DNA of 64,000 nucleotides from Akkermansia muciniphila (GCA_945901795.1 CAMDLP010000002.1:21325-85324); one strand, 5' to 3'. Counted from the first letter of the stretch, positions 373 through 14,210 are shown. Notes: a model not told the origin generated them from the letters alone. A program made the numbers and translations.

Positions 373-384
373 GGTTCTGTGAGG

Positions 385-1023: not shown

Positions 1024-1034
1024 GGCGACTGGTT

Positions 1035-1628: not shown

Positions 1629-1666
1629 AGCTTGTGTTTAGGTGAGTTGCAAATGTGCGATGTAGT

Positions 1667-2221
1667 TTAAGAAAAGCGATCTACCATGGCTTGCAGCCCA
1701 CCTTGATGCCCGCGACCGACCGCCTCGAATTTCCATTGGCCATTCCGACGATAGAGGCGTCCGAATTCGACAACCGATTCAGAGGAGAAGTCTTCGTCAA
1801 GTTCGTACTTGCAGATCTCTTCGTTGGTCGCGGCATTGTAAATGCGAATGAACGATTCGCGGACCTGGCCGAAGTTCTGTTTTCTCTCTGCCGCTTCATG
1901 GATCGTCACCACAACGACAATTTCTGAGATTCTTGAGTCTACTTTGCTCAAATCCGCCATCAGCGTCTCGTCGTCTCCGTCTCCTTCACCAGTCCGGTTG
2001 TCGCCTGTGCTCGAGACCGAAGAATCCATCGACAACGGGTTGTTATAGTACACAATAAAGCCGTTATCTGGAATTCTCCCGTTTTCGGCGAGGAGGAACG
2101 CGCTGGCGTCGAGATCGAATTCATCCCCGGAAGCCTGTTCATTGGGGTTCCAGCCGAGACCAATTCCAACTCGTTGAAGCCCGATATCAATCCGCTGCCC
2201 TTTTGTGAGGTTAATAGCCAT
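1667..2221 (-). CDS. terD: TerD-family tellurium-resistance/stress protein
   Basis: MAINLTKGQRIDIGLQRVGIGLGWNPNE, TGDNRTGEGDGDDETLMADL, WKFEAVG; close paralog of 1035-1628. Confidence 0.9.
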   Translation of the reverse strand: MAINLTKGQRIDIGLQRVGIGLGWNPNEQASGDEFDLDASAFLLAENGRIPDNGFIVYYNNPLSMDSSVSSTGDNRTGEGDGDDETLMADLSKVDSRISEIVVVVTIHEAAERKQNFGQVRESFIRIYNAATNEEICKYELDEDFSSESVVEFGRLYRRNGQWKFEAVGRGHQGGLQAMVDRFS

Positions 2222-2260
2222 GATGGTTTATGTTGGAGTTTGAGGAGATGGTGAAATTGA

Positions 2261-3211
2261 TTAGGCCTCTTCGGGGCTGGGGAATGCCAGCGACCAGAAT
2301 ATGCCGGTGGCAAGTATGGTCGCCACGATCGCCAGGCTCATCACATTCGGAAGGTGAAAGCCGAAGGCGCTTCCGATCAGCTTGCCTGAGACGAAAATGA
2401 GCAGAAAGAGAACTGCTTTCTCCAGCGCCCAGAATTTGTTTTGCGCTGCAATTAAGATGAAATAGAGGCTACGTAACCCAGCTGCCGCCCATAGGCTGGA
2501 AGTAATCATCAGGAATGGATCGCGAACGACGGCGACAATCACAGGCATCGAATCGAATGCAAAAATAACATCGCAGACTTCGATACAGACGAGGCAGAGA
2601 AAGAGCGGCGTGACTCCATTTGAAAAGAATCGCCCGGAACTGATTGAGGGATTCACCCTTGAGAACCGCCGGACGAGATTTACGGACCAGTGCTTGGAGT
2701 AGTCCACTTCGTCATCTTCATCCCCGCTCTTCCACATCTTGAAGACCGTCCAAAGGACCACCATCGCGAATAGGACGAGAACATAAGGACTGAGGTTGAC
2801 GATGAACGCGCCCGCCCCAAGAAAGACGATGCGAAAAAGGATCGCCCCGAGGATTCCCCAGTAGAGAATCCGATGCTGGAGTGGTTGATTGTGCTCAAGG
2901 GTTAGCCCGAAGGATTTGAAAATCAGAAAGAAGGCGAAAAGATTATCGACCGCGAGCGCCTTTTCCAAAACGTATCCTGTGATGTAGAGGCTGGCGGCTT
3001 CCGGGCCACGATCCCAAAAGACAAAGCCCCCAAAAGACAGGGCACACAATATCCAGATTACCGACCAGAGCGCAGCATCGCCCATGCTCACGGCTTTGCC
3101 GCCTCGATGGGCGCGCAGATCGATCCAAATCGCGATGATAAACGGGATCAGGAATGCAAGAATTTGCAGAAGGGTGATTCCGGCGAATGAGTCAAGGGCC
3201 TGTTGGAACAT
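2261..3211 (-). CDS. terC: TerC-family integral membrane protein
   Basis: 316 aa, polytopic; motifs EKALAVDNLFAFFLIF and AFDSMPVIVAV typical of the TerC/Alx family; last gene of the Ter run. Confidence 0.85.
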   Translation of the reverse strand: MFQQALDSFAGITLLQILAFLIPFIIAIWIDLRAHRGGKAVSMGDAALWSVIWILCALSFGGFVFWDRGPEAASLYITGYVLEKALAVDNLFAFFLIFKSFGLTLEHNQPLQHRILYWGILGAILFRIVFLGAGAFIVNLSPYVLVLFAMVVLWTVFKMWKSGDEDDEVDYSKHWSVNLVRRFSRVNPSISSGRFFSNGVTPLFLCLVCIEVCDVIFAFDSMPVIVAVVRDPFLMITSSLWAAAGLRSLYFILIAAQNKFWALEKAVLFLLIFVSGKLIGSAFGFHLPNVMSLAIVATILATGIFWSLAFPSPEEA

Positions 3212-3324
3212 GATTTATGGGATGTTTGATCGAGCGGTTCGGCAAGCTGGACGGCCAGCCGTTGGCTGTTTTCAACTAACTGAGGAAAACGCTAGTCTGT
3301 TGTTTTTAGACAACAAGCTAAAAA

Positions 3325-3645
3325 TTGCTCCAAGCGAGGGACAGCATCTCCCACCTTGGCGGGATGCCTCCTTTTCCCGGATTATCGACACCTGATGGAT
3401 CTCCATCAGGTGATCCGGACTTGGATGTACTCTTGAGATTTGTAGGAATTCTCCGCGAGGCCCGTCGTCAGCAAGGACTAACGCTACGCGACTTAAATGC
3501 AAAAATGGGGATTAATTTCGCACATCTTTCCAGGGCGGAGCGCGGATTGACTCAACCGGGTGTCGTGGTCCTATCACGGTGGTGCCGGGCGTTGGGCCTG
3601 AAATTTGGGGAGGTTTGGCAGCAAGCTTCGGGCGAGGTCGAATAG
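3325..3645 (+). CDS. XRE-family helix-turn-helix transcriptional regulator (true start uncertain; possibly TTG at 3421)
   Basis: [50 protein letters not shown] is a classic HTH_XRE core; divergent from terC. Confidence 0.6.
3389..3412. promoter_or_regulatory. Perfect 11-bp inverted repeat with 2-nt spacer (CACCTGATGGA tc TCCATCAGGTG); candidate operator
   Basis: Read directly; lies just upstream of the conserved HTH core of the XRE ORF, in the terC/XRE divergent region. Confidence 0.35.
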
Positions 3646-3992
3646 CGGCCCGCATCGTCGGCCCGAAAAAAGCCCGCGAGATCTGGTATCTCTGCCGCCA
3701 ATACGACGCCCAGCAGGCGCTCGACATGGGGTTGGTGAACACCGTCGTCCCGCTCGCCGATCTCGAAAAGGAAACCCTCCAGTGGTGCCGTGAAATGCTC
3801 GCGCACTCGCCGCTCGCCCTGCGTTGTTTGAAGTCCGCCCTCAACGCCGACTGCGACGGCCAGATAGGCCTGCTCGACCTAGCGGGAAACGCCACCCTCC
3901 TCTACTACATGAGCGAGGAAGGCCGCGAAGGGAAACAAGCCTTCCTCGAAAAACGTCCACCGGATTTCACGAAATTCCCGCGCGTGCCGTGA
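3645..3992 (+). pseudogene. menB: menB (1,4-dihydroxy-2-naphthoyl-CoA synthase) 3' remnant, about the last 115 codons only
   Basis: [106 protein letters not shown] matches the MenB C-terminus nearly residue for residue. Similarity stops abruptly at about 3645, where the XRE stop codon (3643-3645) sits. Confidence 0.8.
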
Positions 3993-4076
3993 ACAGACCG
4001 GGCTCTATCTTTGCGGGTTTGCGATCCATCGCCGCGCGATTAAGCTCCCACGTGGAAATCCCCGCCCGACTGAAGC

Positions 4077-4649
4077 TTGAACTGCGCGACGGCACGCCCG
4101 TCATCGTTCCGGCCGTTGATTCCGGAAGACCGGCCCGAGCTGGCGGAGGCATACCGGCGCTTGTCACCGGACGCCCGTTACAACCGGTTCTGGAGCCACA
4201 CCGGCGAAGTCGTCGGGGACAAGATGCTCGACCGGGTGCTCCGGCAGAATCCCGAAAATCACGTGACGTGGACCGTGCTCGATCCCAGCCGTGAATTCAG
4301 TCCGCTCGGTGGCGCGAGCTGGTGGCGCGACATGAATCATCCCGCCGAAGTGGAAATCTCCTTCATCGTTCTCGACGAGGAACAGGGCCGCAGCATCGGC
4401 ACCCTGCTGCTCGCGCTCATGTGGCTCACCGCCTTCCGCGCCGGCGCGGAATCCATCGTCGGCTACGTGCTCGCGGAAAACCGCCAGGCCGCGGGCTGGA
4501 TGCGCGACTGCGGCGCCACCGGCGAGTGGGATGGCTACAAGCTGATCTACCGCTGGAATCTGAGCGACCTCGACGCCCTTCCCGAAACCCGCGCCGCCGC
4601 CGAACTCCCGGTCTGGCTGGCCAAGCTGGGCCCGAAACTTCTCGGTTGA
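4077..4649 (+). CDS. GNAT-family N-acetyltransferase (Pat-like GNAT domain); N-terminus possibly frameshifted
   Basis: RPLIPEDRPELAEAYRRLSPDARYNRFWS... and SIGTLLLALM are GNAT-like; the expected preceding LRDGTPVIV motif is in the -1 neighbouring frame (see findings). Confidence 0.7.
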   Translation: MNCATARPSSFRPLIPEDRPELAEAYRRLSPDARYNRFWSHTGEVVGDKMLDRVLRQNPENHVTWTVLDPSREFSPLGGASWWRDMNHPAEVEISFIVLDEEQGRSIGTLLLALMWLTAFRAGAESIVGYVLAENRQAAGWMRDCGATGEWDGYKLIYRWNLSDLDALPETRAAAELPVWLAKLGPKLLG

Positions 4650-4852
4650 AATCTCATGATACCGTCCGTCTTCCCGGTGCTCTTTCGCATAGACCAGCGC
4701 AAGACAGACGATGCAACTAACCGCCACTCCCGGCTGAGACGGCCGGGAAAGCATTCCGTCGCCCGCCGAGCTTGCGCCGACGCAGGCAAGCTGAGAGATT
4801 CCCCGCATTGGAAACGGTTTGGAAAAACGATTTGCCCGAGGGCTTCGACCCG

Positions 4853-5746
4853 ATGACGGCCAAGGAGCTGCGGCAGAGCTTGCGACGCGGCAGCTTCGTC
4901 TATCCGTTTCTGGGCATCCAGTTGTTCGCCGTGGTCGCGATGGCTGCGGAATTTCAACTCGGCCACGCCGCGGAGAGCTCGGAATACACCGGCGCGCTCA
5001 ACCTCTGGCTGCTCGCGAGCTCCGGCCCGTTCTGGATGGTCGTTGCCGCGATCTGTCTTCTCATCATACCGATGAGCGGCGTGATCCTGATGGGCCAGGA
5101 GCTTGAGGAGGGAAATCACGAACTGCTCCTGCTCACCAAACTGGACCGCTGGAAAATCGTGACCGGGAAATTCATCACGCTGTGGGGGCTGTGCGCGCTG
5201 ACCTTCGTTTCCCTGCTGCCTTACGTGGTCGTGCGCTACATGGTCGGCGGGATCGAGTGGTGGCATGAGGCGGCTTGCGCGGGAACAGTGTTAGGCGGCT
5301 CCGCCATGATCAGCGCGGGCGCCATCGGCGCGTCGGCATTCAAAAGAACCGGCGTGCGGGTGGCGGTGCTGGCGCTTTTTCTCGCCTCAATGGTGGCGGG
5401 CTGCGCCGCGCCGCTGCTAGGGATCGGCGCGCAAAGCGGCCGCTGCGGCTGGATCTATCATTTCACCGCGCTCGCGGCGGTGGTCTGCTACACGCTGATG
5501 GGACTTGCGCTTGCCCGCTCGCGCCTGCGGTTGGCGATCATGGCTTACGAGGTGCAGCCTAGCGGAATGATCATCGGCCTGCTGGTGTTCGCGCCGTTCG
5601 TCATCGGACTGGTGACGGCGGTCACGGTCGGCTGGGGCGGAGCCCTCGGCCTGATCGGCACGGCCATCGTCGCCGTGCGGATGGACGTGACGCCGAAAGC
5701 GCCGCAATGGATGCCGCCGCCACCACCGGACCTGCCGGCTGGTTAG
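4853..5746 (+). CDS. ABC-2-type permease-like membrane protein, orphan (no ATPase partner)
   Basis: MTAKELRQSLRRGSF..., ELEEGNHELLLLTKLDRWKIVTGKFITLWG resembles the E-x-E-x-GT-x-ELL/GKF signature of ABC-2 permeases; at least 6 hydrophobic segments. Confidence 0.55.
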   Translation: MTAKELRQSLRRGSFVYPFLGIQLFAVVAMAAEFQLGHAAESSEYTGALNLWLLASSGPFWMVVAAICLLIIPMSGVILMGQELEEGNHELLLLTKLDRWKIVTGKFITLWGLCALTFVSLLPYVVVRYMVGGIEWWHEAACAGTVLGGSAMISAGAIGASAFKRTGVRVAVLALFLASMVAGCAAPLLGIGAQSGRCGWIYHFTALAAVVCYTLMGLALARSRLRLAIMAYEVQPSGMIIGLLVFAPFVIGLVTAVTVGWGGALGLIGTAIVAVRMDVTPKAPQWMPPPPPDLPAG

Positions 5747-5801
5747 AGCTTGTCTGCGAAATTGGGGTTCGTTGGATGCGTCCGATTCGTGGCGGCCCTG
5801 G

Positions 5802-6146
5802 TCATAGGCCCGAGGGAAATAGTTTCCGGCATTGGGCTAAAGCCAGTTGCTGGTCTTCCAGCCAGCGTGAGTCGCAGAAGCAGTTGAAAAACCGGCCCGC
5901 GCGCTGGCGGGCGTCGCGGAGGGACGCGCCCTCGTCATCGTCGAGCACGATGTCCGGGTGGGCGGCGAGGATTTCCCGGATCAGCGCGACCGCCTCGGCA
6001 TGGGGAATCCGCCCGGCCCCGCCCGCGACGTCGGCCAGTCGTTCCGCGCAATCGACGTATATGGCAGCCGATGGCCGGGTCAGTGGGCGGAAAAAATCCC
6101 GTGAGACGGAGGCAAGGAGCTTTTCACTGAGATTCGGCGGGGACAT
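5802..6146 (-). CDS. Hypothetical protein, 114 aa, possibly the 5' fragment of a longer gene
   Basis: ORF with GC-rich third positions; divergent from the AEP-helicase gene (134-bp spacer); no family recognised. Confidence 0.4.
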   Translation of the reverse strand: MSPPNLSEKLLASVSRDFFRPLTRPSAAIYVDCAERLADVAGGAGRIPHAEAVALIREILAAHPDIVLDDDEGASLRDARQRAGRFFNCFCDSRWLEDQQLALAQCRKLFPSGL

Positions 6147-6280
6147 GCGGTGGGCGGCGGTCTAGGGTTCCTGCTTGCGGCAACCCAAGCGCGAAATCCC
6201 CAGCCGGCCGGAAATTGAAGTGGCATTCCGCTCCCGGCACCACGCCTCGACATGCCGTGATCGAGATGGGAAGCTAGCGC

Positions 6281-9109
6281 ATGAGCGGCGTTTTCGATAG
6301 ACCACTCACGTTGGCCGATGCCGCCGGCGTGCATGCGCGCAGCCCGTCAGAGGAAAAGGTCGCGCTGTTCCGCTCGTTGTTTCGCGGGCGTGAGGATGTC
6401 TATCCGCGCCGTTTCGTAAGCAAGAAAACCGGGAAACCAGGATATGCCCCGGTCTGTGCCAACGAATGGGTCCGCGGCATCTGTGAGAAACCCCGGATCA
6501 AATGCGGGGATTGCCCGCACCGCGCATTCCTGCCGGTGACCGATGAAGTCATCTGCTGGCATCTGTCAGGAAAAGACAGGGCCGGGCAGGAGTTCATCGC
6601 CGGAGTCTATCCGATGTTCGCCGACGAGACCTGCTATTTCCTGGCCATGGATTTCGATAAGGAATTCTGGCGGGATGACGTGCTCGCGGTGATGGAAACC
6701 TGCCGCATCCTGCAAATTCCAGCCGCGCTCGAACGCTCGCGCTCCGGCAATGGCGGCCATGTCTGGTTATTTTTCACCGACGCGGTTCCCGCGACGATGG
6801 CGCGCAAGCTCGGGTCGTTCATCCTGACGGAAACCATGGAGCGCAGGCCCGAACTTGGCCTCGCATCCTACGACCGGCTGTTTCCCAACCAAGACACGCT
6901 GCCCAAGGGCGGCTTTGGCAACCTGATCGCCCTGCCGATGCAGAAAGGCCCGCGGGAGAATGGCAACAGCGTGTTCGTCGATGAAACCCTCACTCCCCAT
7001 CCGGATCCGTGGGCGTTTCTTTCCTCTATCCAGAGGCTATCACGCGAACGCGTGGAATCCATCACGCAGGACGCGGAAAGCCGTGGCCGCGTGGTCGGCG
7101 TGCGCTTCGCTCTATCCACCGATGACGAACCGGAACCATGGAACGCCCTCCCATCGCGGCGTCATCGCGAGCCTTCTATCAGTGGTCCGTTGCTGAAAGA
7201 AATCGAGGTGGTGCTCGGTGATTTGGTTTACATCACCAAAAAGGGAATTTCGCCTGCCTTACAAAACCGCGTGCTGCGTCTCGCCGCTTTTCAAAATCCG
7301 GAGTTTTACCGCGCCCAAGCCATGCGCCTCTCGACCCACGACAAACCTCGTGTCATCGCCTGCGGGGAAGATCACCCCGCACACCTTGCTCTGCCGCGCG
7401 GTTGCCTGGAGGAAATTCTCGCGCTCTTCGCTGAGTTGAAAATCAAACCCTTGATCCATGACCAGCGCGTGACCGGAACACCGCTCGATCTCGATTTCAC
7501 CGGCACACTCCGCCCGGAACAGGAAACCGCCGCCACCGCGATGCTCGCGCACGACACCGGCGTGCTGTCCGCCACCACCGCCTTCGGCAAAACCGTGCTT
7601 GCCGCCCACCTCATCGCCGCCCGCGGGGTGAACACGTTGATTCTGGTCCATCGTCAGCAGCTGCTAGAGCAATGGATCGAGCGCCTCTCGTCCTTTCTCG
7701 GTTTGCCCGCCAAATCCATCGGCCGCCTCGGCGGCGGGCACAAGAAACTTACCGGTGGAATTGACGTCGCCCTCATCCAAAGCCTCGTCCGCAAGGGCGT
7801 CGTCGATGACCGGGTGGCGGACTACGGTCATCTAATCATTGATGAATGCCATCACCTATCCGCCCAAAGTTTCGAGCTGGTCGCCCGCCGTGCCAAAGCC
7901 CGTTTCGTGCTCGGACTTTCCGCCACCGTGGCGCGCAAGGACGGCCGTCACCCGATCATCTTTATGCAGTGCGGCCCCGTCCGCCACCGGGTGGATGCCA
8001 AGCAACAGGCGGATGCCCGACCGTTCACCCATCATGTCATCGTCCGTCCGACCGGCCTCCGCTCCGCCTCCGAACCGGATCCCGACCGACGCCTTGAATA
8101 CCAGAATCTGTGCGCGGAAATCATCCGCTCCGAGCAGCGCAACCACATGATCCGCGACGACGTCGCCGCCGCCCTGCGCGAAGGCCGCTCGCCGCTGGTC
8201 CTAACCGAACGCACCGAACATGTGGCGGTCCTCGCCGAATTGATCCGTCCGCACGCCCCGCACCTGATCATCCTCCAAGGCGGCATGGGCCGGAAATCCC
8301 TGCGTGAGGCGACCGCCCAACTCGCCGCCGTTCCGGAAAGCGAATCCCGCGTGGTCATCGCCACCGGCAAGTTCGTCGGCGAAGGCTTCGATGACTCACG
8401 GCTCGACACGCTTTTTCTAACCATGCCCGTTTCCTGGCGCGGCATCATCGCCCAATACGCCGGACGCCTCCACCGCCTCCACGACGGCAAACGCGAAGTC
8501 AGAGTCCACGACTACGCCGACCTCGATATCCCGATGCTCTCCCGGATGTTCGATAAGCGTTGCGCGGGATATGAAGCAGTCGGCTACACCATTCTACTAC
8601 CTGCCAGTGCGCTTCCCGGTTGGCCCACCGAGGTTCCGCTTCCCATCGATCCCGAATGGAAAAGGGACTACGCCGCCAGCGTCCGCCGCTTGATCCGCGA
8701 TGGCGTGGATGTTCCTCTCGGAAATCTGTTTGTCACCGCCACTTGCTCTAACAACTACCACGAACGAGCCCGCAGCGCCAGCGAAGCTTTCCTTTTCCAA
8801 CGCCTCGAATCCCTACCGGAAACCGCCGGACTGTTCCGGCTCAATGCCAAGCTGCCGATCCCCTTCGATGGTTGGAGCGAGATGGAAATCGACCTGTATT
8901 GCGCCGGACTCAAGCTCGCCATCGAGATCGACGGACCACAACATCTATCCAATCCCGCCGCCTATCGCAGCGACCGCCGCAAGGACGCCTTGCTTCAGGA
9001 AAACGGCTGCCATGTCTTGCGTTTCCTCGCCGAAGACCTCGGCAAACATCTGGATGCTACGCTCGATGCCATCTTACGCGCCATTACGCACCTTCGGAGG
9101 AACCGATAG
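6281..9109 (+). CDS. AEP primase-polymerase / Cys4 knuckle / DEAH-box SF2 helicase / DUF559 (Vsr-like endonuclease) fusion protein, 942 aa
   Basis: AEP motifs: LAMDFD (D124,D126; nt 6650-6658), SRSGNGGHVWLFF (H160), FGNLIALP. Cys cluster CANEW..GICEKPRIKCGDCPH. Helicase: AFGKT (K437, nt 7589-7591), DECH (nt 7841-7852), LSAT, QYAGRLHR. C-terminus: EMEIDLYCAGLKLAIEIDGPQH...RRKDALLQENGCHVLRF is DUF559-like. Confidence 0.85.
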   Translation: MSGVFDRPLTLADAAGVHARSPSEEKVALFRSLFRGREDVYPRRFVSKKTGKPGYAPVCANEWVRGICEKPRIKCGDCPHRAFLPVTDEVICWHLSGKDRAGQEFIAGVYPMFADETCYFLAMDFDKEFWRDDVLAVMETCRILQIPAALERSRSGNGGHVWLFFTDAVPATMARKLGSFILTETMERRPELGLASYDRLFPNQDTLPKGGFGNLIALPMQKGPRENGNSVFVDETLTPHPDPWAFLSSIQRLSRERVESITQDAESRGRVVGVRFALSTDDEPEPWNALPSRRHREPSISGPLLKEIEVVLGDLVYITKKGISPALQNRVLRLAAFQNPEFYRAQAMRLSTHDKPRVIACGEDHPAHLALPRGCLEEILALFAELKIKPLIHDQRVTGTPLDLDFTGTLRPEQETAATAMLAHDTGVLSATTAFGKTVLAAHLIAARGVNTLILVHRQQLLEQWIERLSSFLGLPAKSIGRLGGGHKKLTGGIDVALIQSLVRKGVVDDRVADYGHLIIDECHHLSAQSFELVARRAKARFVLGLSATVARKDGRHPIIFMQCGPVRHRVDAKQQADARPFTHHVIVRPTGLRSASEPDPDRRLEYQNLCAEIIRSEQRNHMIRDDVAAALREGRSPLVLTERTEHVAVLAELIRPHAPHLIILQGGMGRKSLREATAQLAAVPESESRVVIATGKFVGEGFDDSRLDTLFLTMPVSWRGIIAQYAGRLHRLHDGKREVRVHDYADLDIPMLSRMFDKRCAGYEAVGYTILLPASALPGWPTEVPLPIDPEWKRDYAASVRRLIRDGVDVPLGNLFVTATCSNNYHERARSASEAFLFQRLESLPETAGLFRLNAKLPIPFDGWSEMEIDLYCAGLKLAIEIDGPQHLSNPAAYRSDRRKDALLQENGCHVLRFLAEDLGKHLDATLDAILRAITHLRRNR

Positions 9110-9168
9110 AAAGCCGGGACACATTTGTTGGAATTTCCTGTCCACGACATGCATCGGCAGAAACGCGC

Positions 9169-9579
9169 TCACGACCAGCGCCGCACCCATTCGGCCGGTA
9201 GGCGCATGGGTTTGCCGGCGGGCATTTGGACGAGGGCGAGGGCTTGGCGGGCGGTGACGAGGAGCGCACCGTCGGACTCGCGGACCATTTCGAAGGCGCA
9301 CCAAAACCGGGCGCGCGACATCTCGTCGAGCCGGCCGCGGATGACGAGCCAGTCGCCGAGCTTGGCGGGGAGCTTGTAATCGACCTCGGTGCGGGTGACC
9401 ACGGGGTAAATCTGGGTGCCGGACATCGTCGGCAAGTCCATGCCCATTTGCGCGGCGAGGCGGGTGCGGCAGGTTTCGATCATCCGCAGGTAGGCGAGGT
9501 TGTGGACGACTCCGCCGCAGTCGGTGTCGAAAAACATGACTTCTTCACGGGTTTCCAGGCTCGGGACGCGGTCGGACAT
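9169..9579 (-). CDS. Hotdog-fold acyl-CoA thioesterase (YbgC/4HBT family; possible DHNA-CoA thioesterase)
   Basis: 136 aa; MFFDTDCGGVVHNLAYLRMIE is the typical 4HBT catalytic-Asp region. Confidence 0.75.
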   Translation of the reverse strand: MSDRVPSLETREEVMFFDTDCGGVVHNLAYLRMIETCRTRLAAQMGMDLPTMSGTQIYPVVTRTEVDYKLPAKLGDWLVIRGRLDEMSRARFWCAFEMVRESDGALLVTARQALALVQMPAGKPMRLPAEWVRRWS

Positions 9580-9659
9580 GCGGCGATTTAGGCCCAGCCG
9601 GGCGGAATCTGCAATGTTCGCTTGTGAGGCGGCGCAGGGATTTGCTTAAACCAAGCAGG

Positions 9660-11432
9660 ATGCGTCCGGGAAAATTCCATGTGTTGCGAGTCGCGGGGTT
9701 GTCGCTGGCAGCGGCGACCTGCCTTTTCGCGCAAAAGTTCGCGCCGCCCGCAGAAGGCCCGGTGGCGTTCCGGCGCGACCGAATCCCGCTGGATGCCGAG
9801 GCGATGGCGGGTCTTTCCCGGCAGCTCGCGACGCTGGCCGAGGGACTGGATTTCAAAACGGCGGCAAACCGCCGTGCCGCAGCACAGATGCTCGCGCTCG
9901 CGGTAACCCTTGATCCAGCTAACAGCAAGACGAGGGAGCTCATCGCCCGATTCCAAGCAGAAAAACACCTGCCACCAGCCGATCCGCAGGAGGCCGGGAG
10001 AGCCAGAGAGCAAATCTGGCAGCATCTAACCTGGCTGGAGACGCCGGAGTCCGGGACCCCCGGCCAGGCGCTGGCCGCGTGCCTGACGGACGTCATGCTC
10101 GTTTCCGATCCGGCCCATCCGCGGGCGGAGGCCTTGCGCGCCGCCGGGGAGCGCGGCGCATGGCAGGGCTGGATTCCCGAACTCGGTGCCTACGAAACCG
10201 TGGCCGCCGTAAAACCCAAGCCACCCGAGGAAGTGGTGGCCGCGGTGCCCGCCAAGCCCGGCATCCTCCTTTCCAAGGCGCGGGTTTTCACGCCGCTTTG
10301 GAAAAATGTCGGTAACGACGAGTCCATGAAATGGGTTCTCTGCCGCGCTCCGCTCCAAATGTCCGCCGCAATAATCCCGGCCGGGGAGGGTGAATCGAGT
10401 CCCTTTTCCGTGACCATCGGCGCCACGAATGACGATCACCGGCTCTCGCGGCTGCACATCGCGCTCCGCGCAATCCTCAAGCAACAACACGGCAGCCTGC
10501 CTGCGGGCGGGCGCGTCACCATCACCAGCAGCGCCTTGGAAACGTCGCTCAAGTCTAATAAAAGCCATGCGATCAGCGCCGCCGCCGCCGTGCTCGCGAG
10601 CTCCGCGATTTCCGGCCGCGAGCCGGATGCCACGATCATCGGCCTGATCGATGAAAGCGGGGCTTTCAAGCTGCCGCAGCGATTCTGGGAGCAGCTCAAG
10701 TCGCTAGGCCCCGGCCAAGGCGGCCGCCTAGTCCTCCCCGCCGCCGCCGCCGCTTACCTGCCCTCGATGTTGGCCCTGGAAAATCCCGGATTTTTCCTCG
10801 AATACGAAGTCTTGCTCGCCTCGAACTTCCGGGAACTCCTCGACCTAACGGAAAAATCGCCCAGTGAGAACCTTGAGAAAACCTCCGCACAGTTCCGGGA
10901 AATCCGCGAAAAAGCCACCTCCCAAGTAATCGGCAACTACCTTTCCAACAGCTTTGTCCGCCGCCGCCTGGAGGAGCTCGCCCAGCAAGCCCCCTACCAT
11001 TACTCGGCGAAAATGCTCGCCCTCCAAGGCTCGGGAAATCGCCCCGCCTATATTTCCCGGGCGGTTCTCGCTGCCGAACTCCGCCGCGTCATCGAGCCTC
11101 TCGACTGGCTCGCGCAACGGGATTATTACAGTCTTTCCAAGGCCAAATCGGATCAGCTGAGATCCGCCCAAGACACCTTCCGGAGCGAGGCCGATCGCCT
11201 TTTCCGCTGTACGGAAAAGGGCGATCGCCAACTGCTGGCCCGTGCGCAGGAAATAGCCACCGCCATCCGGACTCTGGAGCGGACCCTCAAAACGCGCGAT
11301 GAGTTTAACGCCGAGGGCTCCGAGGGCTCTGGGGGCTTTTCCGCCTATTCGGCGCTGGCCCGCGTTCACGCCGAAATCACCGCGGAGCTCGCCACCGCGA
11401 TCGGAAATCCCGAGGCCGCCTCGGCCCGCTAA
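9660..11432 (+). CDS. Secreted hypothetical protein (about 590 aa)
   Basis: MRPGKFHVLRVAGLSLAAATCLFAQ signal peptide; long ORF with coding-like composition; no confident family. Confidence 0.6.
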   Translation: MRPGKFHVLRVAGLSLAAATCLFAQKFAPPAEGPVAFRRDRIPLDAEAMAGLSRQLATLAEGLDFKTAANRRAAAQMLALAVTLDPANSKTRELIARFQAEKHLPPADPQEAGRAREQIWQHLTWLETPESGTPGQALAACLTDVMLVSDPAHPRAEALRAAGERGAWQGWIPELGAYETVAAVKPKPPEEVVAAVPAKPGILLSKARVFTPLWKNVGNDESMKWVLCRAPLQMSAAIIPAGEGESSPFSVTIGATNDDHRLSRLHIALRAILKQQHGSLPAGGRVTITSSALETSLKSNKSHAISAAAAVLASSAISGREPDATIIGLIDESGAFKLPQRFWEQLKSLGPGQGGRLVLPAAAAAYLPSMLALENPGFFLEYEVLLASNFRELLDLTEKSPSENLEKTSAQFREIREKATSQVIGNYLSNSFVRRRLEELAQQAPYHYSAKMLALQGSGNRPAYISRAVLAAELRRVIEPLDWLAQRDYYSLSKAKSDQLRSAQDTFRSEADRLFRCTEKGDRQLLARAQEIATAIRTLERTLKTRDEFNAEGSEGSGGFSAYSALARVHAEITAELATAIGNPEAASAR

Positions 11433-11530
11433 ATGGTCTCGCCGCTTGCGTCAGCCAGTCAAGAATTGGCCGAATCTGGCTGGAAATTTCCGCTGGGTAA
11501 TCACACCGGACCGTCTATTTTCCCGGGCAA

Positions 11531-11749
11531 ATGAACTTCAGCCTCGATCCCTACAACCTGCTCGCGGGATTCATCTTTGGGACGATCGGCTGGGGCGCGT
11601 TCCGGTATGGGAAGCGGCTGGATTTGTGGCAACCGCAGGCCATCGGGGTGGCGTTGATGGTTTATCCCTACTTGTTTACCAATAACTGGCTGCTGTGGGG
11701 GATCGGCGTGGGGCTGATGGTCCTGCTGTGGTTTTTCCATCACGAGTGA
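11531..11749 (+). CDS. Small membrane protein (72 aa, 2-3 TM)
   Basis: Hydrophobic, Trp/Gly-rich segments; no long competing ORF on the opposite strand before 11676. Confidence 0.45.
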   Translation: MNFSLDPYNLLAGFIFGTIGWGAFRYGKRLDLWQPQAIGVALMVYPYLFTNNWLLWGIGVGLMVLLWFFHHE

Positions 11750-11807
11750 GATGGCACCGGATTTCCCTTGGCAGAAGGGCGGTTTTTCCCGCTAGTTTCC
11801 CCCGCCC

Positions 11808-12770
11808 ATGCCAACCGAAGCGATCCTTTCCACCGTCCGCCAGTTCCTCGGCGTGGACCCGACCGTGCGCATCACGCTCGAGCCGATCAAACGCGGCGCC
11901 TCGGGCCGCACGATCGTCCGGGTGAAAACGCCGGGCCACGAGCCGTTCATCGGCGTGCATTGGACCGAGGAGCGCGAGGACAACTCGCAGTTCATCCCGG
12001 TCGCGCAGTTCCTGAAACAGGCGAAATTGCGCGTGCCGACGATCATTCACGACCGGGCGAGGTATCGGGTGGCGTTGGTCGAGGATCTGGGCGACGTGGA
12101 TCTGCTGTCGCTGAAAGACCGGCCGTTTGCGGAGCGGCTGCCGCTTTACCGCTCGGCGTTCGAGCAGGTGGACAAGTTGTTTTATGCGAAGCCGGCGAAG
12201 GATTTCCACCTGATGCCGCCGTTCGACGCCGCGCTCTATCGTTGGGAGCAGGAGTATTTTTTCGAATACATGGTCGAGGATTTCCTCGGGCTGGATGCCG
12301 GCGGACTGCGTAAAAACGAGGCGTTCATCGACCTCTCGCAGCGCCTCGGCACGGTCGCGCGGCACCTGGTGCACCGGGATTTCCAGTCGCAAAATCTGAT
12401 GATCAAGGACGACAAGGTCTGGCTCATCGACTTCCAAGGCCTCCGCCGCGGCCGTCAGGAATACGATCTCGCGTCGTTGATTTTCGACCCCTACCTCGAC
12501 CACTCCGCCGAGGAGCGCGAGCAGCTTCTCAAGCTCTGGGAGGAAATCGCCGACGAGCGGCCGCTGGAAAAGCTGTTCCACGAATGCGCCGCCCAACGCC
12601 TGATGCAGGCGCTCGGGGCGTATGGAAACATCGTGAAAAACCGCGGCGACGAGTGGTATCGGCCGCACATCGCGACGGCCGCGCGGCTGCTCGGCGAGGT
12701 GACCGCCGGCACGCCGCTGGAAACTCCGCTCGCGCCGGTGCTCACGGCGATCCGCCAATCGGAAAAGTGA
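11808..12770 (+). CDS. Aminoglycoside-phosphotransferase-fold kinase, AmgK-like (anomeric MurNAc/GlcNAc kinase family)
   Basis: HRDFQSQNLMI, WLIDFQGLRRGRQEYDLASLIFDPY: catalytic loop and DFQ motif of the APH/AmgK family. Confidence 0.75.
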   Translation: MPTEAILSTVRQFLGVDPTVRITLEPIKRGASGRTIVRVKTPGHEPFIGVHWTEEREDNSQFIPVAQFLKQAKLRVPTIIHDRARYRVALVEDLGDVDLLSLKDRPFAERLPLYRSAFEQVDKLFYAKPAKDFHLMPPFDAALYRWEQEYFFEYMVEDFLGLDAGGLRKNEAFIDLSQRLGTVARHLVHRDFQSQNLMIKDDKVWLIDFQGLRRGRQEYDLASLIFDPYLDHSAEEREQLLKLWEEIADERPLEKLFHECAAQRLMQALGAYGNIVKNRGDEWYRPHIATAARLLGEVTAGTPLETPLAPVLTAIRQSEK

Positions 12771-14203
12771 CCAGCTCGTTCCATCGCCGGCTGCGTGCGC
12801 TGCTCATTTCGGCGGCGGCCCTCGCTGTGTGGCTGGCGGTGCCGGGCACGGGAGTGGACCGCGCGGCGTTCACGACGGTGGCTAGCAGCTTCGTCAATCC
12901 GCCGCTGTTCGTCAGCGGACACGGCACCCGCGCCAATCCGTGGAAGCTGCGAGCGTTTTCCTCTGAGTCGAAGTTAGATCGGCGCAACGCTCCGGTGATC
13001 GTCGCGCTGGAGGACGATCCGGAGGGCTTCTTCCAATCGTCGCCGCCTGCGCCCATCGACCTGGCGGTGATCTTCACGAACTTCCACCGGCTCGGCGCGA
13101 AAAAGGCGGCTACGGCGGCGGTGCTGGCTTGGGAAACGCCGGACCCGATCGGGCTGGCGGCCTTGGAGAAATCGCTGGCGCGTTTCGATTCGCTGGTGAT
13201 GGCTGCACCGCTTTCCCGCGGCGCCGTGGCCTCGGCGATGCCTCGGGCTTTCCGCCGTGCTTCGATCCCGCTGGCGGCCGTTAGGGGCGACACCTCGTCG
13301 CTGCCGGTGGTCAACCGGGTTCCGATTCCGGGCGTGATCTTGGGCGGACCCAATGCGTTGGCGGGATTTTCCGTGCTCGAAGCTGCAGCGGCGGATCGCT
13401 TTCCCCCGCTGTTGGCGCGCTGGGAAGACCGCGTCGTTTTCGGCTTTCCGCTGCTCACCGTGCTCCAGCGGCTTGATCTCCCGACCGACGGCGTGGAAGT
13501 GCGTCTCGGCGAATATCTGAAACTCAGCCCGGCCGGGCCGACCATTCCGATCGACGACTACGGCCGCCTCGCCGTGCCACTCAAACCGATCCGCGGCCTC
13601 GCCGAAATTTCCGCCGAGGCGTTGATCGACGGCGGCGACGATTTGTTCCCAAAGCAAGCGCCCGATCCGGTGATCCTGCGAGACGACCGCAGCGCCGTAG
13701 AACCCGCGACCCGGGCCTTCTCGCAGAATCTATCCGCCACGATCGCCGCCATCGCGTCCGACGAGGGACTGGCCGAAGTCCGCGAATATCCGCGGCTGGC
13801 ACCGGTCTGGGAAATCGAGTTTCTGGCGGTGTTCGTCATCGTGCTCACGCTGCTTTCCAAGGCGTCGGACTTCACGCGGCGGCTGGGTTTCCTGGTGGTC
13901 GCCGGTGTCTGTCTATCCGCGCAATGGATCGCGCTGGGCATGGCGTCCGTCTGGCTGCCGGGCTTGGCGGCGCTCGCGACGATTCTGGCGGCGCTGGTTG
14001 CTTCACGGCTGATCCTTGAAAGGACTCCGAAGCCGGTTTCCGAGAACGAAATTCTGCGGGTGCCGAAACCCGCGCCACCGACGAAGAAAGCTCGCGCCCC
14101 TTCGGAAAAAGCTCCCGTCGAAAAACCGGCAGAAAAAACCTCCCCGAAAAAAGCCGCGACACCTCGCAAGCCGCGCACTAAAAAGCCCCCCGCCGACACC
14201 TGA
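12767..14203 (+). CDS. Membrane protein with a large extracytoplasmic domain (CHASE2-like topology) and a Lys/Pro/Ala-rich C-terminal tail
   Basis: GTG start overlapping the upstream stop (GTGA); N-terminal TM, about 380-aa domain, three TM segments, then PKPAPPTKKARAPSEKAPVEKPAEKTSPKKAATPRKPRTKKPP. Confidence 0.6.
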   Translation: MTSSFHRRLRALLISAAALAVWLAVPGTGVDRAAFTTVASSFVNPPLFVSGHGTRANPWKLRAFSSESKLDRRNAPVIVALEDDPEGFFQSSPPAPIDLAVIFTNFHRLGAKKAATAAVLAWETPDPIGLAALEKSLARFDSLVMAAPLSRGAVASAMPRAFRRASIPLAAVRGDTSSLPVVNRVPIPGVILGGPNALAGFSVLEAAAADRFPPLLARWEDRVVFGFPLLTVLQRLDLPTDGVEVRLGEYLKLSPAGPTIPIDDYGRLAVPLKPIRGLAEISAEALIDGGDDLFPKQAPDPVILRDDRSAVEPATRAFSQNLSATIAAIASDEGLAEVREYPRLAPVWEIEFLAVFVIVLTLLSKASDFTRRLGFLVVAGVCLSAQWIALGMASVWLPGLAALATILAALVASRLILERTPKPVSENEILRVPKPAPPTKKARAPSEKAPVEKPAEKTSPKKAATPRKPRTKKPPADT

Positions 14204-14210
14204 CTCGCCC

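What the first reader, a model, noticed from the sequence alone, without database searches (positions are those of the whole stretch)
6281..9109. Single 942-aa protein fusing AEP primase-polymerase, Cys4 knuckle, DEAH SF2 helicase and a DUF559/Vsr-like nuclease: candidate stand-alone conflict system
The sequence shows all catalytic signatures of four modules in one ORF. AEP: DxD in LAMDFD, sGxGxH in SRSGNGGH, FGNLIALP. Cys4: CANEW..GICEKPRIKCGDCPH. SF2 helicase: GKT, DECH, SAT, QxxGRxxR. DUF559: IEIDGPQH...RRKD...VLRF. Replicative primase-helicases of plasmids and phages do not normally carry a Vsr-fold nuclease. This gene also has no integrase, Rep, partition or structural phage genes around it. 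A priming or polymerising module coupled to a translocase and a nuclease effector in one solitary gene is the logic of an anti-MGE system, not of replication. From memory only, AEP+helicase proteins starting with the FRGREDVY-type motif are labelled 'TOTE conflict system' in some reference annotation. I know of no experimental characterisation, and the DUF559 fusion may be a distinct variant.
Basis: partly seen in the sequence, partly recalled or inferred. Interest (0 to 1): 0.85.

Follow-up and report, generated by a model that had tools for sequence, protein, structure and literature searches.

The report
Solitary primase-helicase-nuclease conflict gene
This is a real, intact gene fusing a DNA primase-polymerase, an XPB-type DNA motor and a Vsr-type nuclease; it belongs to a large, horizontally mobile family already catalogued as a predicted bacterial conflict (anti-invader) protein, but nobody has tested what it does.

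Summary
ORF 6281..9109 (+) encodes 942 aa with Pfam AEP-TOTE (E=8e-98), an XPB/UvsW-like SF2 helicase and a C-terminal DUF559/Vsr-type nuclease. The Cys4 knuckle lies inside the AEP domain, so it is not a fourth module.

The gene is not new as a sequence. A 100% identical protein is public, and NCBI names an 87% identical one 'TOTE conflict system archaeo-eukaryotic primase domain-containing protein'. It is not a canonical TOTE system: no TPR-OB or TBP partner recurs in the neighbourhoods sampled.

The conserved core is AEP plus helicase. The C-terminus is DUF559, a PLD nuclease, or absent.

The DUF559 form:
- occurs at 60-68% identity across at least nine phyla;
- sits at different loci even at 95% identity;
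- is under strong purifying selection (dN/dS about 0.1);
- is IS-disrupted in one genome;
- lies next to Wadjet or AbiE in some genomes.

Tail-less relatives are found on conjugative plasmids, Tn7-like transposons and integrative elements.

My best reading is a stand-alone anti-invader enzyme (confidence about 0.5). A portable excision-repair enzyme or a mobile-element function remain live rivals. I rate it a new member of a computationally known kind, of moderate interest.

The parts
6281..9109 (+). Complete ORF, 942 aa plus stop: AEP primase-polymerase, XPB-like SF2 helicase and DUF559 nuclease in one polypeptide.
   Evidence: A 100% identical public protein exists (P0001). dN/dS is 0.07-0.11 against relatives of 89-95% identity.
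6147..6280 (+). 134-bp upstream intergenic region; presumed promoter and 5' UTR of a monocistronic gene.
   Evidence: The preceding ORF is on the opposite strand. No sigma-70 consensus site was found. The flanks are not conserved among homologous loci.
6353..7060 (+). AEP-TOTE primase-polymerase domain (aa 25-260). Catalytic residues are D124, D126, H160 and D198; the GGFGNLIALP motif is present.
   Evidence: Pfam PF22548, E=8.4e-98. PADLOC 'PrimPol' PDLC01465, 1e-89. Foldseek match to the CAPP Prim-Pol domain 7NQF, target-normalised TM 0.79. Residue conservation.
6455..6514 (+). Cys4 zinc knuckle (C59, C68, C75, C78), embedded in the AEP domain.
   Evidence: Invariant in 44 of 44 DUF559-class sequences and 42 of 43 family-wide. 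It lies inside the Pfam AEP-TOTE envelope.
7082..7195 (+). Low-confidence, probably flexible linker (aa ~268-305) between the AEP and the motor.
   Evidence: pLDDT is 44-66 and no secondary structure is predicted in the model. This is the least conserved internal segment.
7196..7480 (+). Conserved pre-helicase domain (aa ~306-400; NPEFY..AQAMRLST..PR..LPRGC). It occupies the position of the N-terminal DNA-junction or damage-recognition domain of XPB and UvsW.
   Evidence: High pLDDT. Foldseek alignments to XPB and UvsW span about 490-520 columns, more than the two RecA lobes alone. The phage UvsW/D10-like helicase matches start at aa 287-393. The functional assignment is an inference.
7481..8593 (+). 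SF2 helicase/translocase core of XPB type (aa 401-771). Motifs: Walker A GKT 436-438, DECH 521-524, SAT 547-549, an RxD counterpart of the RED motif at R552-K553-D554, and QxxGRxxR 725-732.
   Evidence: Pfam ResIII and DEAD. PDB XPBII 6P4F at 1e-16 and AfXPB 2FWR at 3e-13.
8594..8830 (+). Highly conserved helical region (aa 772-850) that joins the motor to the nuclease; function unknown.
   Evidence: Mean conservation 0.76 in the DUF559 class, with many invariant residues including P774, G780, W781, P782, W793 and R829-S832. Helices are predicted.
8831..9106 (+). DUF559 / Vsr-like (EDxHD-type PD-(D/E)xK) endonuclease core (aa 851-942). Conserved residues: E869, D871, E882, D884, Q887, H888, D898, R899, K901, D902.
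   Evidence: Pfam DUF559, 1.8e-9, above its cutoff. PDB 3HRL at E=3.7e-9 and homing endonuclease 3R3P at 0.035. Residue conservation.

Best explanation
The gene encodes a self-contained, horizontally mobile nucleic-acid conflict enzyme, most likely an anti-phage or anti-plasmid defence protein.

Shown here:
- One polypeptide carries an intact CAPP-like AEP primase-polymerase with a built-in Zn knuckle, an XPB/UvsW-type SF2 DNA translocase with its N-terminal accessory domain, and a Vsr/EDxHD-type endonuclease.
- All three modules are under strong purifying selection.
- AEP plus motor is the conserved core of a large family. The C-terminal nuclease is an exchangeable module: DUF559, PLD or none.

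Inferred mechanism:
1. The XPB-like motor loads on branched or partly unwound DNA typical of replicating or newly entered foreign DNA, and uses ATP to open or translocate it.
2. The AEP domain binds the exposed single strand and starts DNA or RNA synthesis de novo. This either traps the invader's replication intermediate or creates the junction the nuclease needs.
3. The tethered Vsr-type nuclease nicks or cleaves at that junction and inactivates the invader.

How it spares host DNA is unknown. No partner gene is required, because none is conserved.
For: - Domain identity and intact active sites.
- Purifying selection on every module: AEP 0.06-0.07, helicase 0.02-0.08, C-terminus 0.09-0.14.
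- Horizontal transfer: the full DUF559 architecture occurs at 60-68% identity in Verrucomicrobiota, Acidobacteriota, Planctomycetota, Chlamydiota, Legionellales/Coxiella, Riflebacteria, Marinimicrobia and Deltaproteobacteria.
- No synteny: relatives of 95%, 92%, 89% and 79% identity each sit in a different neighbourhood. A related contig (neighbour proteins 87% and 55% identical) keeps the thioesterase + 590-aa pair but has no copy of this gene.
- Dispensability: an IS3-family transposase is inserted in the gene in L057, and 7 of 46 loci carry stops or frameshifts.
- Modular effector swapping and N-terminal fusions (one representative each): PLD, PNP_UDP_1, FMN_red.
- Defence-type neighbours: a complete Wadjet JetABCD immediately upstream in L182. 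AbiEi or AbiEii in about 10 of 131 loci. VapBC/PIN. The PLD class lies beside RloB+AAA_15/21, a DUF4143 ATPase, a Schlafen-like protein and MazE. Type I R-M in L105/L106. CBASS on the Sulfitobacter plasmid.
- The same AEP family is a CRISPR-associated 'PrimPol' profile in PADLOC.
- No phage encodes the fusion.
- Precedent: YprA-family defence helicases with C-terminal Vsr nucleases (PMC12458937) and PrimPol-RT defence proteins (PMC12439943).
Against: - There are no experimental data for any member.
- PADLOC recognises no complete system.
- In the window the near neighbours are metabolic or unknown genes.
- Among 148 flanking genes of DUF559-class loci, most are housekeeping. Only about 8% are toxin-antitoxin, Abi or SNF2 types, and I could not compute a background rate.
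- Very high sequence conservation is unusual for fast-evolving defence genes.
- Tail-less relatives sit on plasmids and in transposons, where a function for the element itself is equally plausible.
- The role proposed for the primase is speculation.
Confidence: 0.5

Rival explanations
1. A portable one-protein excision-repair or damage-tolerance enzyme. The Vsr-type nuclease incises next to a lesion or mismatch, the XPB-like motor opens or displaces the damaged strand (as XPB-Bax1 does in archaeal NER), and the PrimPol refills the gap or re-primes a stalled fork.
For: - All three modules have their closest solved relatives among repair enzymes: XPB and XPB-Bax1, TFIIH, UvsW and RadD, and the Vsr-like DUF559.
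- Incision, unwinding and resynthesis together make up an excision-repair pathway lacking only ligation.
- The gene sits among housekeeping genes in most DUF559-class loci.
- Purifying selection is strong and conservation unusually high.
- A PrimPol-RT defence protein was reported to contribute to an oxidative-damage response as well (abstract of PMC12439943).
Against: - Distribution is patchy, with cross-phylum transfer and no synteny even at 95% identity.
- The nuclease is interchangeable or absent.
- One copy is IS-disrupted and others are pseudogene-like.
- No LexA or SOS-type context or repair-gene neighbours were noticed.
- Relatives lie in transposon cargo, beside Wadjet, AbiE and R-M, and on plasmids.
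Confidence: 0.2
2. A mobile-element function. The AEP-helicase core primes and unwinds DNA for the element that carries it, for example complementary-strand synthesis after conjugative entry or replication during transposition, or it acts as an anti-defence factor. On this reading the chromosomal DUF559 copy is a stranded or domesticated remnant.
For: - 56 plasmid records carry the AEP-helicase core at 55-59% identity.
- It lies in plasmid regions that also carry ParB, DUF932, ArdC, DUF736 or strawberry-notch genes.
- It lies immediately after TnsB-like, TniB and TniQ genes in Sphingobium pTB1, and after TniQ in S. meliloti pMl1.
- It lies beside three tandem tyrosine recombinases in several plasmids.
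- It lies inside low-GC (0.40-0.48), largely gut-metagenome elements with integrases and a relaxase.
- Integrase is the commonest neighbour family of the tail-less class.
Against: - The window and most DUF559-class loci have no integrase, relaxase, Rep or Par genes.
- The motor is a monomeric-type XPB/UvsW SF2 translocase. From general knowledge, mobile-element primase-helicases use hexameric SF3, SF4 or MCM helicases.
- The gene is never inside a recognised replication module.
- Transposon and plasmid accessory regions are also where defence cargo sits (PMC8649781).
- A fused endonuclease under purifying selection is hard to reconcile with a pure priming role.
Confidence: 0.15
3. A selfish, homing-like gene. 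The EDxHD-type nuclease cuts a target site and the gene spreads by repair-mediated copying, with the primase-helicase assisting its own propagation.
For: - The C-terminal profile weakly matches the homing endonuclease I-Bth0305I (3R3P, E=0.035).
- The solitary gene occurs at many different loci with no flanking recombinase, and has moved across phyla.
Against: - No intron or intein context was seen, and the homologous loci examined share no insertion context.
- There are no terminal repeats or target duplications.
- A 2.8-kb three-enzyme gene is far larger than known homing endonuclease genes.
- Many family members lack any nuclease.
Confidence: 0.05

Closest known systems
TOTE (TPR, OB, TBP, Effector) conflict systems; Pfam PF22548 AEP-TOTE (Aravind, Iyer and Burroughs 2022, as cited in PMC12458937)
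   Same: The N-terminal domain is a full-length, very strong member of the AEP-TOTE family (E=8e-98). NCBI already gives that name to an 87% identical protein.
   Different: The partners that define TOTE are a TPR-cold-shock/OB protein and a TBP-domain protein. Neither is in the window, and neither recurs in any neighbourhood sampled. I could not read the original description.
CRISPR-associated Prim-Pol (CAPP; PDB 7NQD/7NQE/7NQF; NCBIfam PrimPol_Msp)
   Same: It is the best structural match for the AEP domain (target-normalised TM 0.79, rmsd about 3 A). Sequence matches are sub-threshold. A PADLOC 'PrimPol' profile flagged as cas-associated hits at 1e-89.
   Different: There are no cas genes or CRISPR array in the window. 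The NCBIfam score is 68.7 against a cutoff of 200. Here the AEP is fused to an XPB-like motor and a nuclease rather than linked to Cas1/Cas2.
Archaeal XPB-Bax1 helicase-nuclease machine (PDB 6P4F, 6P4O, 6P66) and T4 UvsW
   Same: These are the top sequence and fold matches for aa ~300-770. The XPB RED motif aligns with R552-K553-D554, of which R552 and D554 are invariant. In both cases a motor is paired with a structure-specific nuclease.
   Different: Here the nuclease is covalently fused and has the Vsr/DUF559 fold, not the Bax1 fold. A primase-polymerase is added. Identity is only 13-20%. Distribution is patchy and horizontally spread.
Defence helicases with a fused nuclease: ARMADA/Druantia YprA helicases with a C-terminal Vsr nuclease (PMC12458937); single-protein helicase-nucleases Nhi and Hna (from my own knowledge)
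   Same: They share the logic of an SF1 or SF2 motor fused to a nuclease, including a C-terminal Vsr-type nuclease in ARMADA. They can act with few or no partners.
   Different: The helicase family is different (XPB-like, not YprA, SF1 or Hna type). No PADLOC hit to those systems exceeds weak helicase-motif matches. None of them carries an AEP primase-polymerase.
PrimPol-reverse transcriptase defence proteins (UG10-type DRT, 'PPRT'; PMC12439943)
   Same: This is a precedent for an AEP PrimPol domain inside a single-protein anti-phage factor. There is a weak PADLOC match of aa 137-236 to RT_UG10_large (E=0.019).
   Different: The polymerase partner there is a reverse transcriptase, with no SF2 motor and no Vsr nuclease. 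The similarity is marginal.
Primase-helicases of plasmids and phages (for example pRN1 ORF904 and P4 alpha; from my own knowledge)
   Same: An AEP-type primase is fused to a helicase, and relatives of this gene occur on plasmids and integrative elements.
   Different: Those use hexameric SF3-, DnaB- or MCM-type replicative helicases and sit in replication modules. This protein has an XPB-type SF2 translocase plus a nuclease. No phage record has the fusion.

Membership tests
Pfam AEP-TOTE domain family (PF22548) | Score above the gathering threshold over the whole profile. | tested here: met
   327 bits against a cutoff of 27, covering profile positions 1-229 of 230 at aa 25-260.
Pfam AEP-TOTE domain family (PF22548) | AEP catalytic residues intact (DxD, sGxGxH histidine, third acidic residue). 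| tested here: met
   D124, D126, H160 and D198 are present and conserved in 41-44 of 44 sequences.
TOTE conflict system (TPR, OB, TBP, Effector) | An adjacent gene for a TPR + OB/cold-shock-domain protein. | tested here: not met
   No TPR or CSD hit in window genes from 2261 to 16136. No recurrent hit among 265 flanking genes of 86 homologous loci, nor in the PLD-class or close-relative contexts. Caveat: the alignment-mode scans list only the 25 commonest families, so single occurrences could be hidden.
TOTE conflict system (TPR, OB, TBP, Effector) | An adjacent gene for a TBP (TATA-binding-protein-like) domain protein. | tested here: not met
   Same searches as the TPR-OB row: no TBP-domain neighbour in the window or recurrently elsewhere.
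CRISPR-associated Prim-Pol (CAPP) | Prim-Pol fold similar to the solved CAPP domain. | tested here: met
   Foldseek match to 7NQF: E=2.8e-13, target-normalised TM 0.79, rmsd 3.1 A.
CRISPR-associated Prim-Pol (CAPP) | Genomic linkage to cas1/cas2 or a CRISPR array, and an equivalog-level sequence score. | tested here: not met
   No array-like repeats in the 64-kb window. No cas genes among the neighbours examined. NCBIfam PrimPol_Msp scores 68.7 bits against a cutoff of 200.
XPB/Rad25-type SF2 helicase | Helicase motifs I, II, III and VI plus the RED motif after motif III. | tested here: met
   GKT, DECH, SAT and QxxGRxxR are invariant. GLSATVARKDGRH aligns with GLTATPERDDGKH of StXPBII and GLTATFEREDGRH of AfXPB. 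The query has RKD, and R552 and D554 are invariant.
XPB/Rad25-type SF2 helicase | Orthology to repair XPB (equivalog score, N-terminal damage-recognition domain, thumb insertion). | tested here: inconclusive
   NCBIfam repair_heli_XPB scores 58.5 bits against a cutoff of 610, so it is XPB-like and not an XPB orthologue. A conserved pre-helicase domain exists, but I did not test its equivalence to the DRD residue by residue. The thumb insertion was not examined.
DUF559 / Vsr-like endonuclease | Pfam score above threshold and similarity to a solved DUF559 structure. | tested here: met
   PF04480 scores 37.9 bits against a cutoff of 20.6. A profile of 38 C-termini hits 3HRL at E=3.7e-9.
DUF559 / Vsr-like endonuclease | Acidic and histidine active-site residues conserved. 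| tested here: met
   E869, D871, E882, D884, Q887, H888, D898 and D902 are conserved in at least 41 of 44 sequences. Catalysis itself cannot be tested here.
Replicative primase-helicase of a plasmid, phage or integrative element | Location in a replication, partition or integration module of a mobile element. | tested here: not met
   The window has none. Flanks of DUF559-class loci show no integrase, Rep or Par among recurrent families. Tail-less relatives do lie on plasmids and integrative elements, but in accessory regions.
Replicative primase-helicase of a plasmid, phage or integrative element | A hexameric replicative helicase (SF3, SF4 or MCM) fused to the primase. | tested here: not met
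   The helicase is SF2 and XPB/UvsW-like by sequence and fold. PHROGs gives only separate helicase and weak primase hits.
Anti-phage or anti-plasmid defence system (operational definition) | Enrichment next to known defence systems. | tested here: inconclusive
   Positive examples: Wadjet, AbiE, AbiL-like RloB+AAA, type I R-M, CBASS. However, most neighbours of the DUF559 class are housekeeping genes, and I computed no background rate.
Anti-phage or anti-plasmid defence system (operational definition) | A protection phenotype on phage or plasmid challenge. | not testable with these tools
   This needs experiments. No report was found in the searchable literature.

The most novel reading that the evidence does not exclude
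A one-protein immune mechanism in which de novo priming or polymerisation by an AEP is an integral step of invader recognition or killing. For example, the XPB-like motor opens foreign DNA, the AEP synthesises a strand on it, and the resulting primed junction licenses the fused Vsr-type (or, in relatives, PLD-type) nuclease. This would be a primase-dependent mode of innate immunity, distinct from CRISPR adaptation and from reverse-transcriptase-based defence, and it would be spread across many bacterial phyla.
Probability: 0.3. Interest if true: 0.8.

Novelty: new member of a known kind. Interest (0 to 1): 0.5.

Why it matters
If the defence reading is right, this is a compact single-gene system of about 2.8 kb. 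It occurs in many phyla and would add a primase-polymerase to the list of immune enzymology. Its three catalytic modules can each be separated by clean point mutants.

The family is large: 3,575 representatives at 50% identity score E<=1e-30. It has natural variants with a DUF559 nuclease, a PLD nuclease or no nuclease, which amounts to a ready-made structure-function series.

If the repair reading is right instead, it would be a horizontally transferable mini excision-repair pathway. Either outcome would give a function to a protein currently annotated only as 'DEAD/DEAH box helicase' or by a domain name.

It also shows that the 'TOTE' product name, transferred from a Pfam domain, does not mean a TOTE system is present.

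Tried and rejected
- Mobile-unit boundaries. I aligned 270 bp upstream and downstream of the gene from four loci and searched for direct and inverted repeats around it. Neither gave conserved flanks, terminal repeats or target duplications.
- Empty-site test. A metagenome scan with the downstream 590-aa neighbour found only one distant relative (L095). It keeps the thioesterase + 590-aa pair without the gene, but the left flank is not syntenic, so the insertion boundaries could not be defined.
- Conserved partner genes. All-against-all clustering of ORFs from 86 loci and Pfam and PADLOC scans of 265 flanking genes found no universal partner. The only recurrent neighbours are minority ones: an SNF2 helicase in 12 of 131 loci, AbiE, and integrases. 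The window's own neighbours have no homologues near other copies.
- CRISPR association. There is no array in the window.
- Phage replication module. No phage record or PHROG family carries the fusion.
- Promoter scan. It found nothing.
- Original TOTE description. The paper is not held by DOI or by PubMed id, and no PMC id was available. The 2005 paper on the AEP superfamily is not held either. The TOTE definition therefore rests on its citation in PMC12458937.
- Link to the Ter cluster. I considered whether the tellurite-resistance-type genes 3 kb upstream are functionally linked. I dropped this because unrelated genes intervene and no other locus shows the pairing.
- Not run: DefenseFinder, and a statistically controlled defence-island score.

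Full report

- Window 6281..9109 (+) is an uninterrupted ATG-initiated ORF of 942 codons.
- Pfam places a full-length AEP-TOTE domain (PF22548) at aa 25-260 with E=8.4e-98. ResIII/DEAD helicase lobe 1 is at aa 409-552 (2e-20 and 2e-9). DUF559 is at aa 870-935 (1.8e-9, above its cutoff).
- NCBIfam gives only sub-threshold hits. The best are the CRISPR-associated primase-polymerase and repair helicase XPB.
- PADLOC finds no system. Its cas-associated 'PrimPol' profile does match aa 23-337 at 1e-89.
- An AlphaFold2 model built on a 43-sequence alignment is confident (mean pLDDT 88.3, pTM 0.75). The only disordered stretches are aa 1-13 and 281-294.
- Foldseek against the PDB returns archaeal XPB (including XPB-Bax1 complexes), TFIIH XPB and T4 UvsW for the central part. 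For the N-terminus it returns the CAPP Prim-Pol domain (target-normalised TM 0.79).
- HMMER against PDB sequences agrees. It aligns the query's GLSATVARKDGRH with GLTATPERDDGKH and GLTATFEREDGRH of archaeal XPBs, so the XPB 'RED' motif is present as R552-K553-D554.
- A profile of 38 C-termini matches the solved DUF559 protein 3HRL (3.7e-9). It also matches, weakly, the EDxHD homing endonuclease 3R3P.

**The motifs are conserved, with one correction**

AEP residues D124, D126, H160 and D198 are in 41-44 of 44 DUF559-class sequences. The four cysteines are in 44 of 44.
- The helicase motifs are invariant across all 43 family representatives. The DUF559 acidic and histidine residues are at least 93% conserved.
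- The Cys4 knuckle lies inside the AEP-TOTE profile, so it is a feature of that domain and not a separate module.
- Two further conserved segments were not in the finding. One is a pre-helicase domain (aa ~306-400). The other is a helical region (aa 772-850) between the motor and the nuclease core.

**Context in the window**

- The gene is monocistronic. The upstream 114-aa ORF and the downstream 4HBT thioesterase are on the opposite strand.
- Within about 10 kb there are TerD x3 and TerC (low GC, 51-56%), a truncated enoyl-CoA hydratase, a GNAT, an ABC-2 membrane protein, a probably secreted 590-aa protein (N-terminal hydrophobic leader) without Pfam hits, an APH-type kinase, an amino-acid kinase and a UbiA prenyltransferase.
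- There is no integrase, relaxase, Rep/Par, phage structural gene, cas gene, CRISPR array, TPR-OB protein or TBP protein.
- The gene's GC3 (0.72) is lower than that of most of its neighbours (0.74-0.86).
- No repeats flank it.

**It is already in the databases**

- A 100% identical protein (P0001) is in NCBI and ENA. The 120 best clusters (78-100% identity) all share the architecture and come from Verrucomicrobiota (Luteolibacter, Akkermansiaceae).
- One, at 87% identity, is named by NCBI 'TOTE conflict system archaeo-eukaryotic primase domain-containing protein'. JGI calls others 'superfamily II helicase/very-short-patch-repair endonuclease'.
- TOTE stands for TPR, OB, TBP, Effector (Aravind, Iyer and Burroughs 2022, as quoted in PMC12458937). 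I could not obtain the original paper.
- I found no paper that characterises this protein.

**Family structure**

- A full HMMER pass over 1.84 billion representatives gives 3,575 proteins at E<=1e-30.
- Among the best 150, the shared core is query aa ~20-771, that is AEP plus motor.
- About half end there, at roughly 780-820 aa. About a third carry a tail of about 150 aa. A handful align through the DUF559 domain.
- Four of the five ~150-aa tails scanned hit Pfam PLDc_2, two of them above threshold. Many tails carry an intact HxK..D motif.
- Single representatives have N-terminal PNP_UDP_1 (P0193) or FMN_red (P0144) domains.
- The nuclease is therefore an exchangeable appendage on a conserved AEP-helicase engine.

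**Distribution and mobility of the DUF559 form**

- One scan of 185,579 species genomes returned the full architecture at 60-68% identity in many lineages: Verrucomicrobiota, Acidobacteriota, Planctomycetota, Chlamydiota, Legionellales/Coxiella, other Gammaproteobacteria, Riflebacteria, Marinimicrobia and Deltaproteobacteria. This is far too similar for vertical descent.
- Neighbourhoods differ completely between the window and relatives of 95% (L181), 92% (L182), 89% (L005) and 79% identity (L006, L007).
- Flanking DNA is not conserved.
- None of the window's neighbours recurs beside other copies.
- A related contig (neighbour proteins 87% and 55% identical) keeps the thioesterase + 590-aa pair without the gene.
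- The gene is nevertheless strongly constrained. dN/dS is 0.07-0.11 overall, 0.06-0.07 for the AEP, 0.02-0.08 for the motor and 0.09-0.14 for the C-terminus.
- It is also dispensable. In L057 an IS3-family transposase sits inside it, and 7 of 46 loci show stops or frameshifts. Some of those may be MAG assembly errors.

**Neighbours across the family**

- For 46 DUF559-class loci, the 148 genes within two positions fall into 121 Pfam families, mostly housekeeping. The only recurrent ones are AbiEii (5), ResIII/SNF2 helicases (3-4), SEC-C (3), AbiEi (2) and PIN (2).
- PADLOC flags only the SNF2 helicases in its 25 commonest families.
- L182 is a striking single case. The gene lies 95 bp downstream of a complete Wadjet JetABCD operon.
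- For 40 other loci (mainly tail-less, plus a few truncated copies), the leading neighbour families are phage-type integrases (6), AbiEii and AbiEi (3 each), TniQ, DUF736 and SNF2 (2 each). There are also single MmeI R-M, IS66, resolvase and Cas_GSU0053 genes.
- PLD-class genes of Clostridia sit beside DUF4143 ATPases, an RloB + AAA_15/21 pair, MazE, Fic, a Schlafen-like protein and DUF3990/DUF3791.
- No TPR-OB or TBP partner appears anywhere. By its system definition, this is not a TOTE system. The label comes from the domain.

**Mobile-element carriage of the tail-less relatives**

- 56 plasmid records, mostly rhizobial and other alphaproteobacterial, carry the core at 55-59% identity.
- In Sphingobium pTB1 it follows a TnsB-like (rve + Mu-transposase C), TniB and TniQ operon, with overlapping stop and start. 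In S. meliloti pMl1 it follows TniQ.
- In Ochrobactrum, Rhizobium and Sulfitobacter plasmids it abuts three tandem tyrosine recombinases. The Ochrobactrum and Rhizobium copies also lie beside ParB with ArdC or DUF932 genes. DUF736 and strawberry-notch genes are near the Ochrobactrum and Sulfitobacter copies.
- In IMG/VR, a low-GC (0.40-0.48) element found largely in gut metagenomes carries it between integrases and a relaxase. A conserved HTH-like protein + DUF3307 pair lies immediately upstream.
- No phage genome has the fusion.
- Tn7-like and plasmid accessory regions are known sites of defence cargo (PMC8649781). This carriage therefore fits either a cargo defence gene or a function for the element itself.

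**Interpretation**

- The best-supported reading is a stand-alone, horizontally mobile conflict enzyme. An XPB/UvsW-type motor engages branched or unwound foreign DNA. A primase-polymerase acts on the exposed strand. An exchangeable nuclease then cuts.
- What is shown: the domain identities, intact active sites, selection, mobility, modularity and some defence-type neighbours. What is inferred: substrate choice, the role of priming, and self/non-self discrimination.
- Two rivals remain serious.
  - The first is a portable incision-unwinding-resynthesis repair enzyme. All three modules resemble repair enzymes, and most neighbours are housekeeping genes.
  - The second is a mobile-element priming, establishment or anti-defence function for the AEP-helicase core.
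- A homing-like selfish gene is unlikely.
- I put the defence reading at about 0.5.

**Novelty and interest**

- The protein is a new member of a family that is already catalogued computationally (Pfam, NCBI product names, a PADLOC profile) but is experimentally uncharacterised.
- The DUF559 fusion is one of three common C-terminal states and is itself widespread. It is therefore not a rare variant.
- The finding is a good, well-defined candidate for experiment, but not a surprise to specialists. I score interest at 0.5.

Noticed in passing
window 225-3211 (- strand), extending upstream in L001 1-6931: A low-GC (51-56% against about 62%) Ter-type cluster: three TerD paralogues and TerC. In the identical contig L001 it continues into two vWA proteins, a PP2C phosphatase and a Ser/Thr kinase. 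It looks like a horizontally acquired stress or phage-resistance island about 3 kb from the gene of interest.
   Followed up: partly
window 3579-3992 (+): A truncated enoyl-CoA hydratase. Only profile positions 125-249 of 251 are present (137-aa ORF; 88 aa as called in L001). It sits exactly where GC rises from about 52% to about 63%, so it is a possible scar of the Ter island insertion.
   Followed up: no
window 11808-12770 (+): An APH-type kinase with a sub-threshold match to TCAD9 (32.7 bits against a cutoff of 40), a domain described from NTP-dependent ternary conflict systems. It is followed by a 478-aa protein with no Pfam hit.
   Followed up: no
window 9169-11432; L095 5549-7803: A 4HBT thioesterase and a divergently transcribed 590-aa protein (probably secreted, from its N-terminal hydrophobic leader; no Pfam hit) form a pair. 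The pair is conserved in a related metagenomic contig that lacks the AEP-helicase gene.
   Followed up: partly
L010 2038-10307 (Sphingobium yanoikuyae pTB1); L009 6643-10280 (S. meliloti pMl1): The tail-less AEP-helicase is the gene directly after a TnsB-like (rve + Mu-transposase C), TniB and TniQ transposition operon, with overlapping stop and start. It is either the first cargo gene or a fourth core gene of a Tn7/Tn5053-like transposon. I found no description of this association.
   Followed up: partly
L008 11119-14287; L091 9346-12805; L094 9321-12744 (also L078, L087, L089): Three tandem tyrosine recombinases (a recombinase-in-trio element) lie 40-60 bp from the 3' end of the AEP-helicase gene in L091 and L094. 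In L008 they lie about 0.8 kb away, beyond a DUF736 gene. This may mark a preferred insertion site.
   Followed up: partly
L108-L118, L124, L125 (IMG/VR; many from gut samples; GC 0.40-0.48): A recurrent integrative mobilisable element carries the tail-less gene with a conserved upstream pair: a 223-237-aa HTH-like protein and a 229-233-aa DUF3307 protein. It is flanked by Bacteroides-type integrases and a MobA/VirD2 relaxase. The pair may be a partner in this subfamily.
   Followed up: partly
L182 1224-10829 (Akkermansiaceae bacterium GCA_040881795.1): A 92% identical copy lies 95 bp downstream of, and co-oriented with, a complete Wadjet JetA-JetB-JetC-JetD operon. This adjacency was not seen in any other of 131 loci.
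   Followed up: yes
L057 12208-13597: An IS3-family transposase (rve, HTH_21) is inserted in the gene and replaces aa ~757-828. Separately, L053, L051 and L037 show frameshifts and L011, L014, L031 and L034 show single in-frame stops, which may be real decay or MAG assembly errors.
   Followed up: yes
L012, L014, L049, L074, L088 (adjacent); L007, L009, L015, L020, L071, L098, L127 (within the locus held): An SNF2-family helicase of 800-1300 aa recurs beside the gene in both the DUF559 and tail-less classes. It is co-oriented and within 10-110 bp in four loci, and divergent at 262 bp in L012. A SWIM zinc-finger protein is adjacent to the AEP-helicase gene in three other loci (L055, L058, L076). 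This may be a two-gene variant.
   Followed up: partly
P0193, P0144 (family representatives): Rare N-terminal fusions of the AEP-helicase core: one to a PNP_UDP_1 nucleoside-phosphorylase-like domain and one to an FMN_red domain.
   Followed up: no
window 6228-6255; L006 and L007, about 30-60 bp upstream of the start: A short similar stretch (TCCCGG ... TCGACA) lies upstream of the start codon in three of four loci aligned. It may be a shared regulatory element or chance.
   Followed up: no
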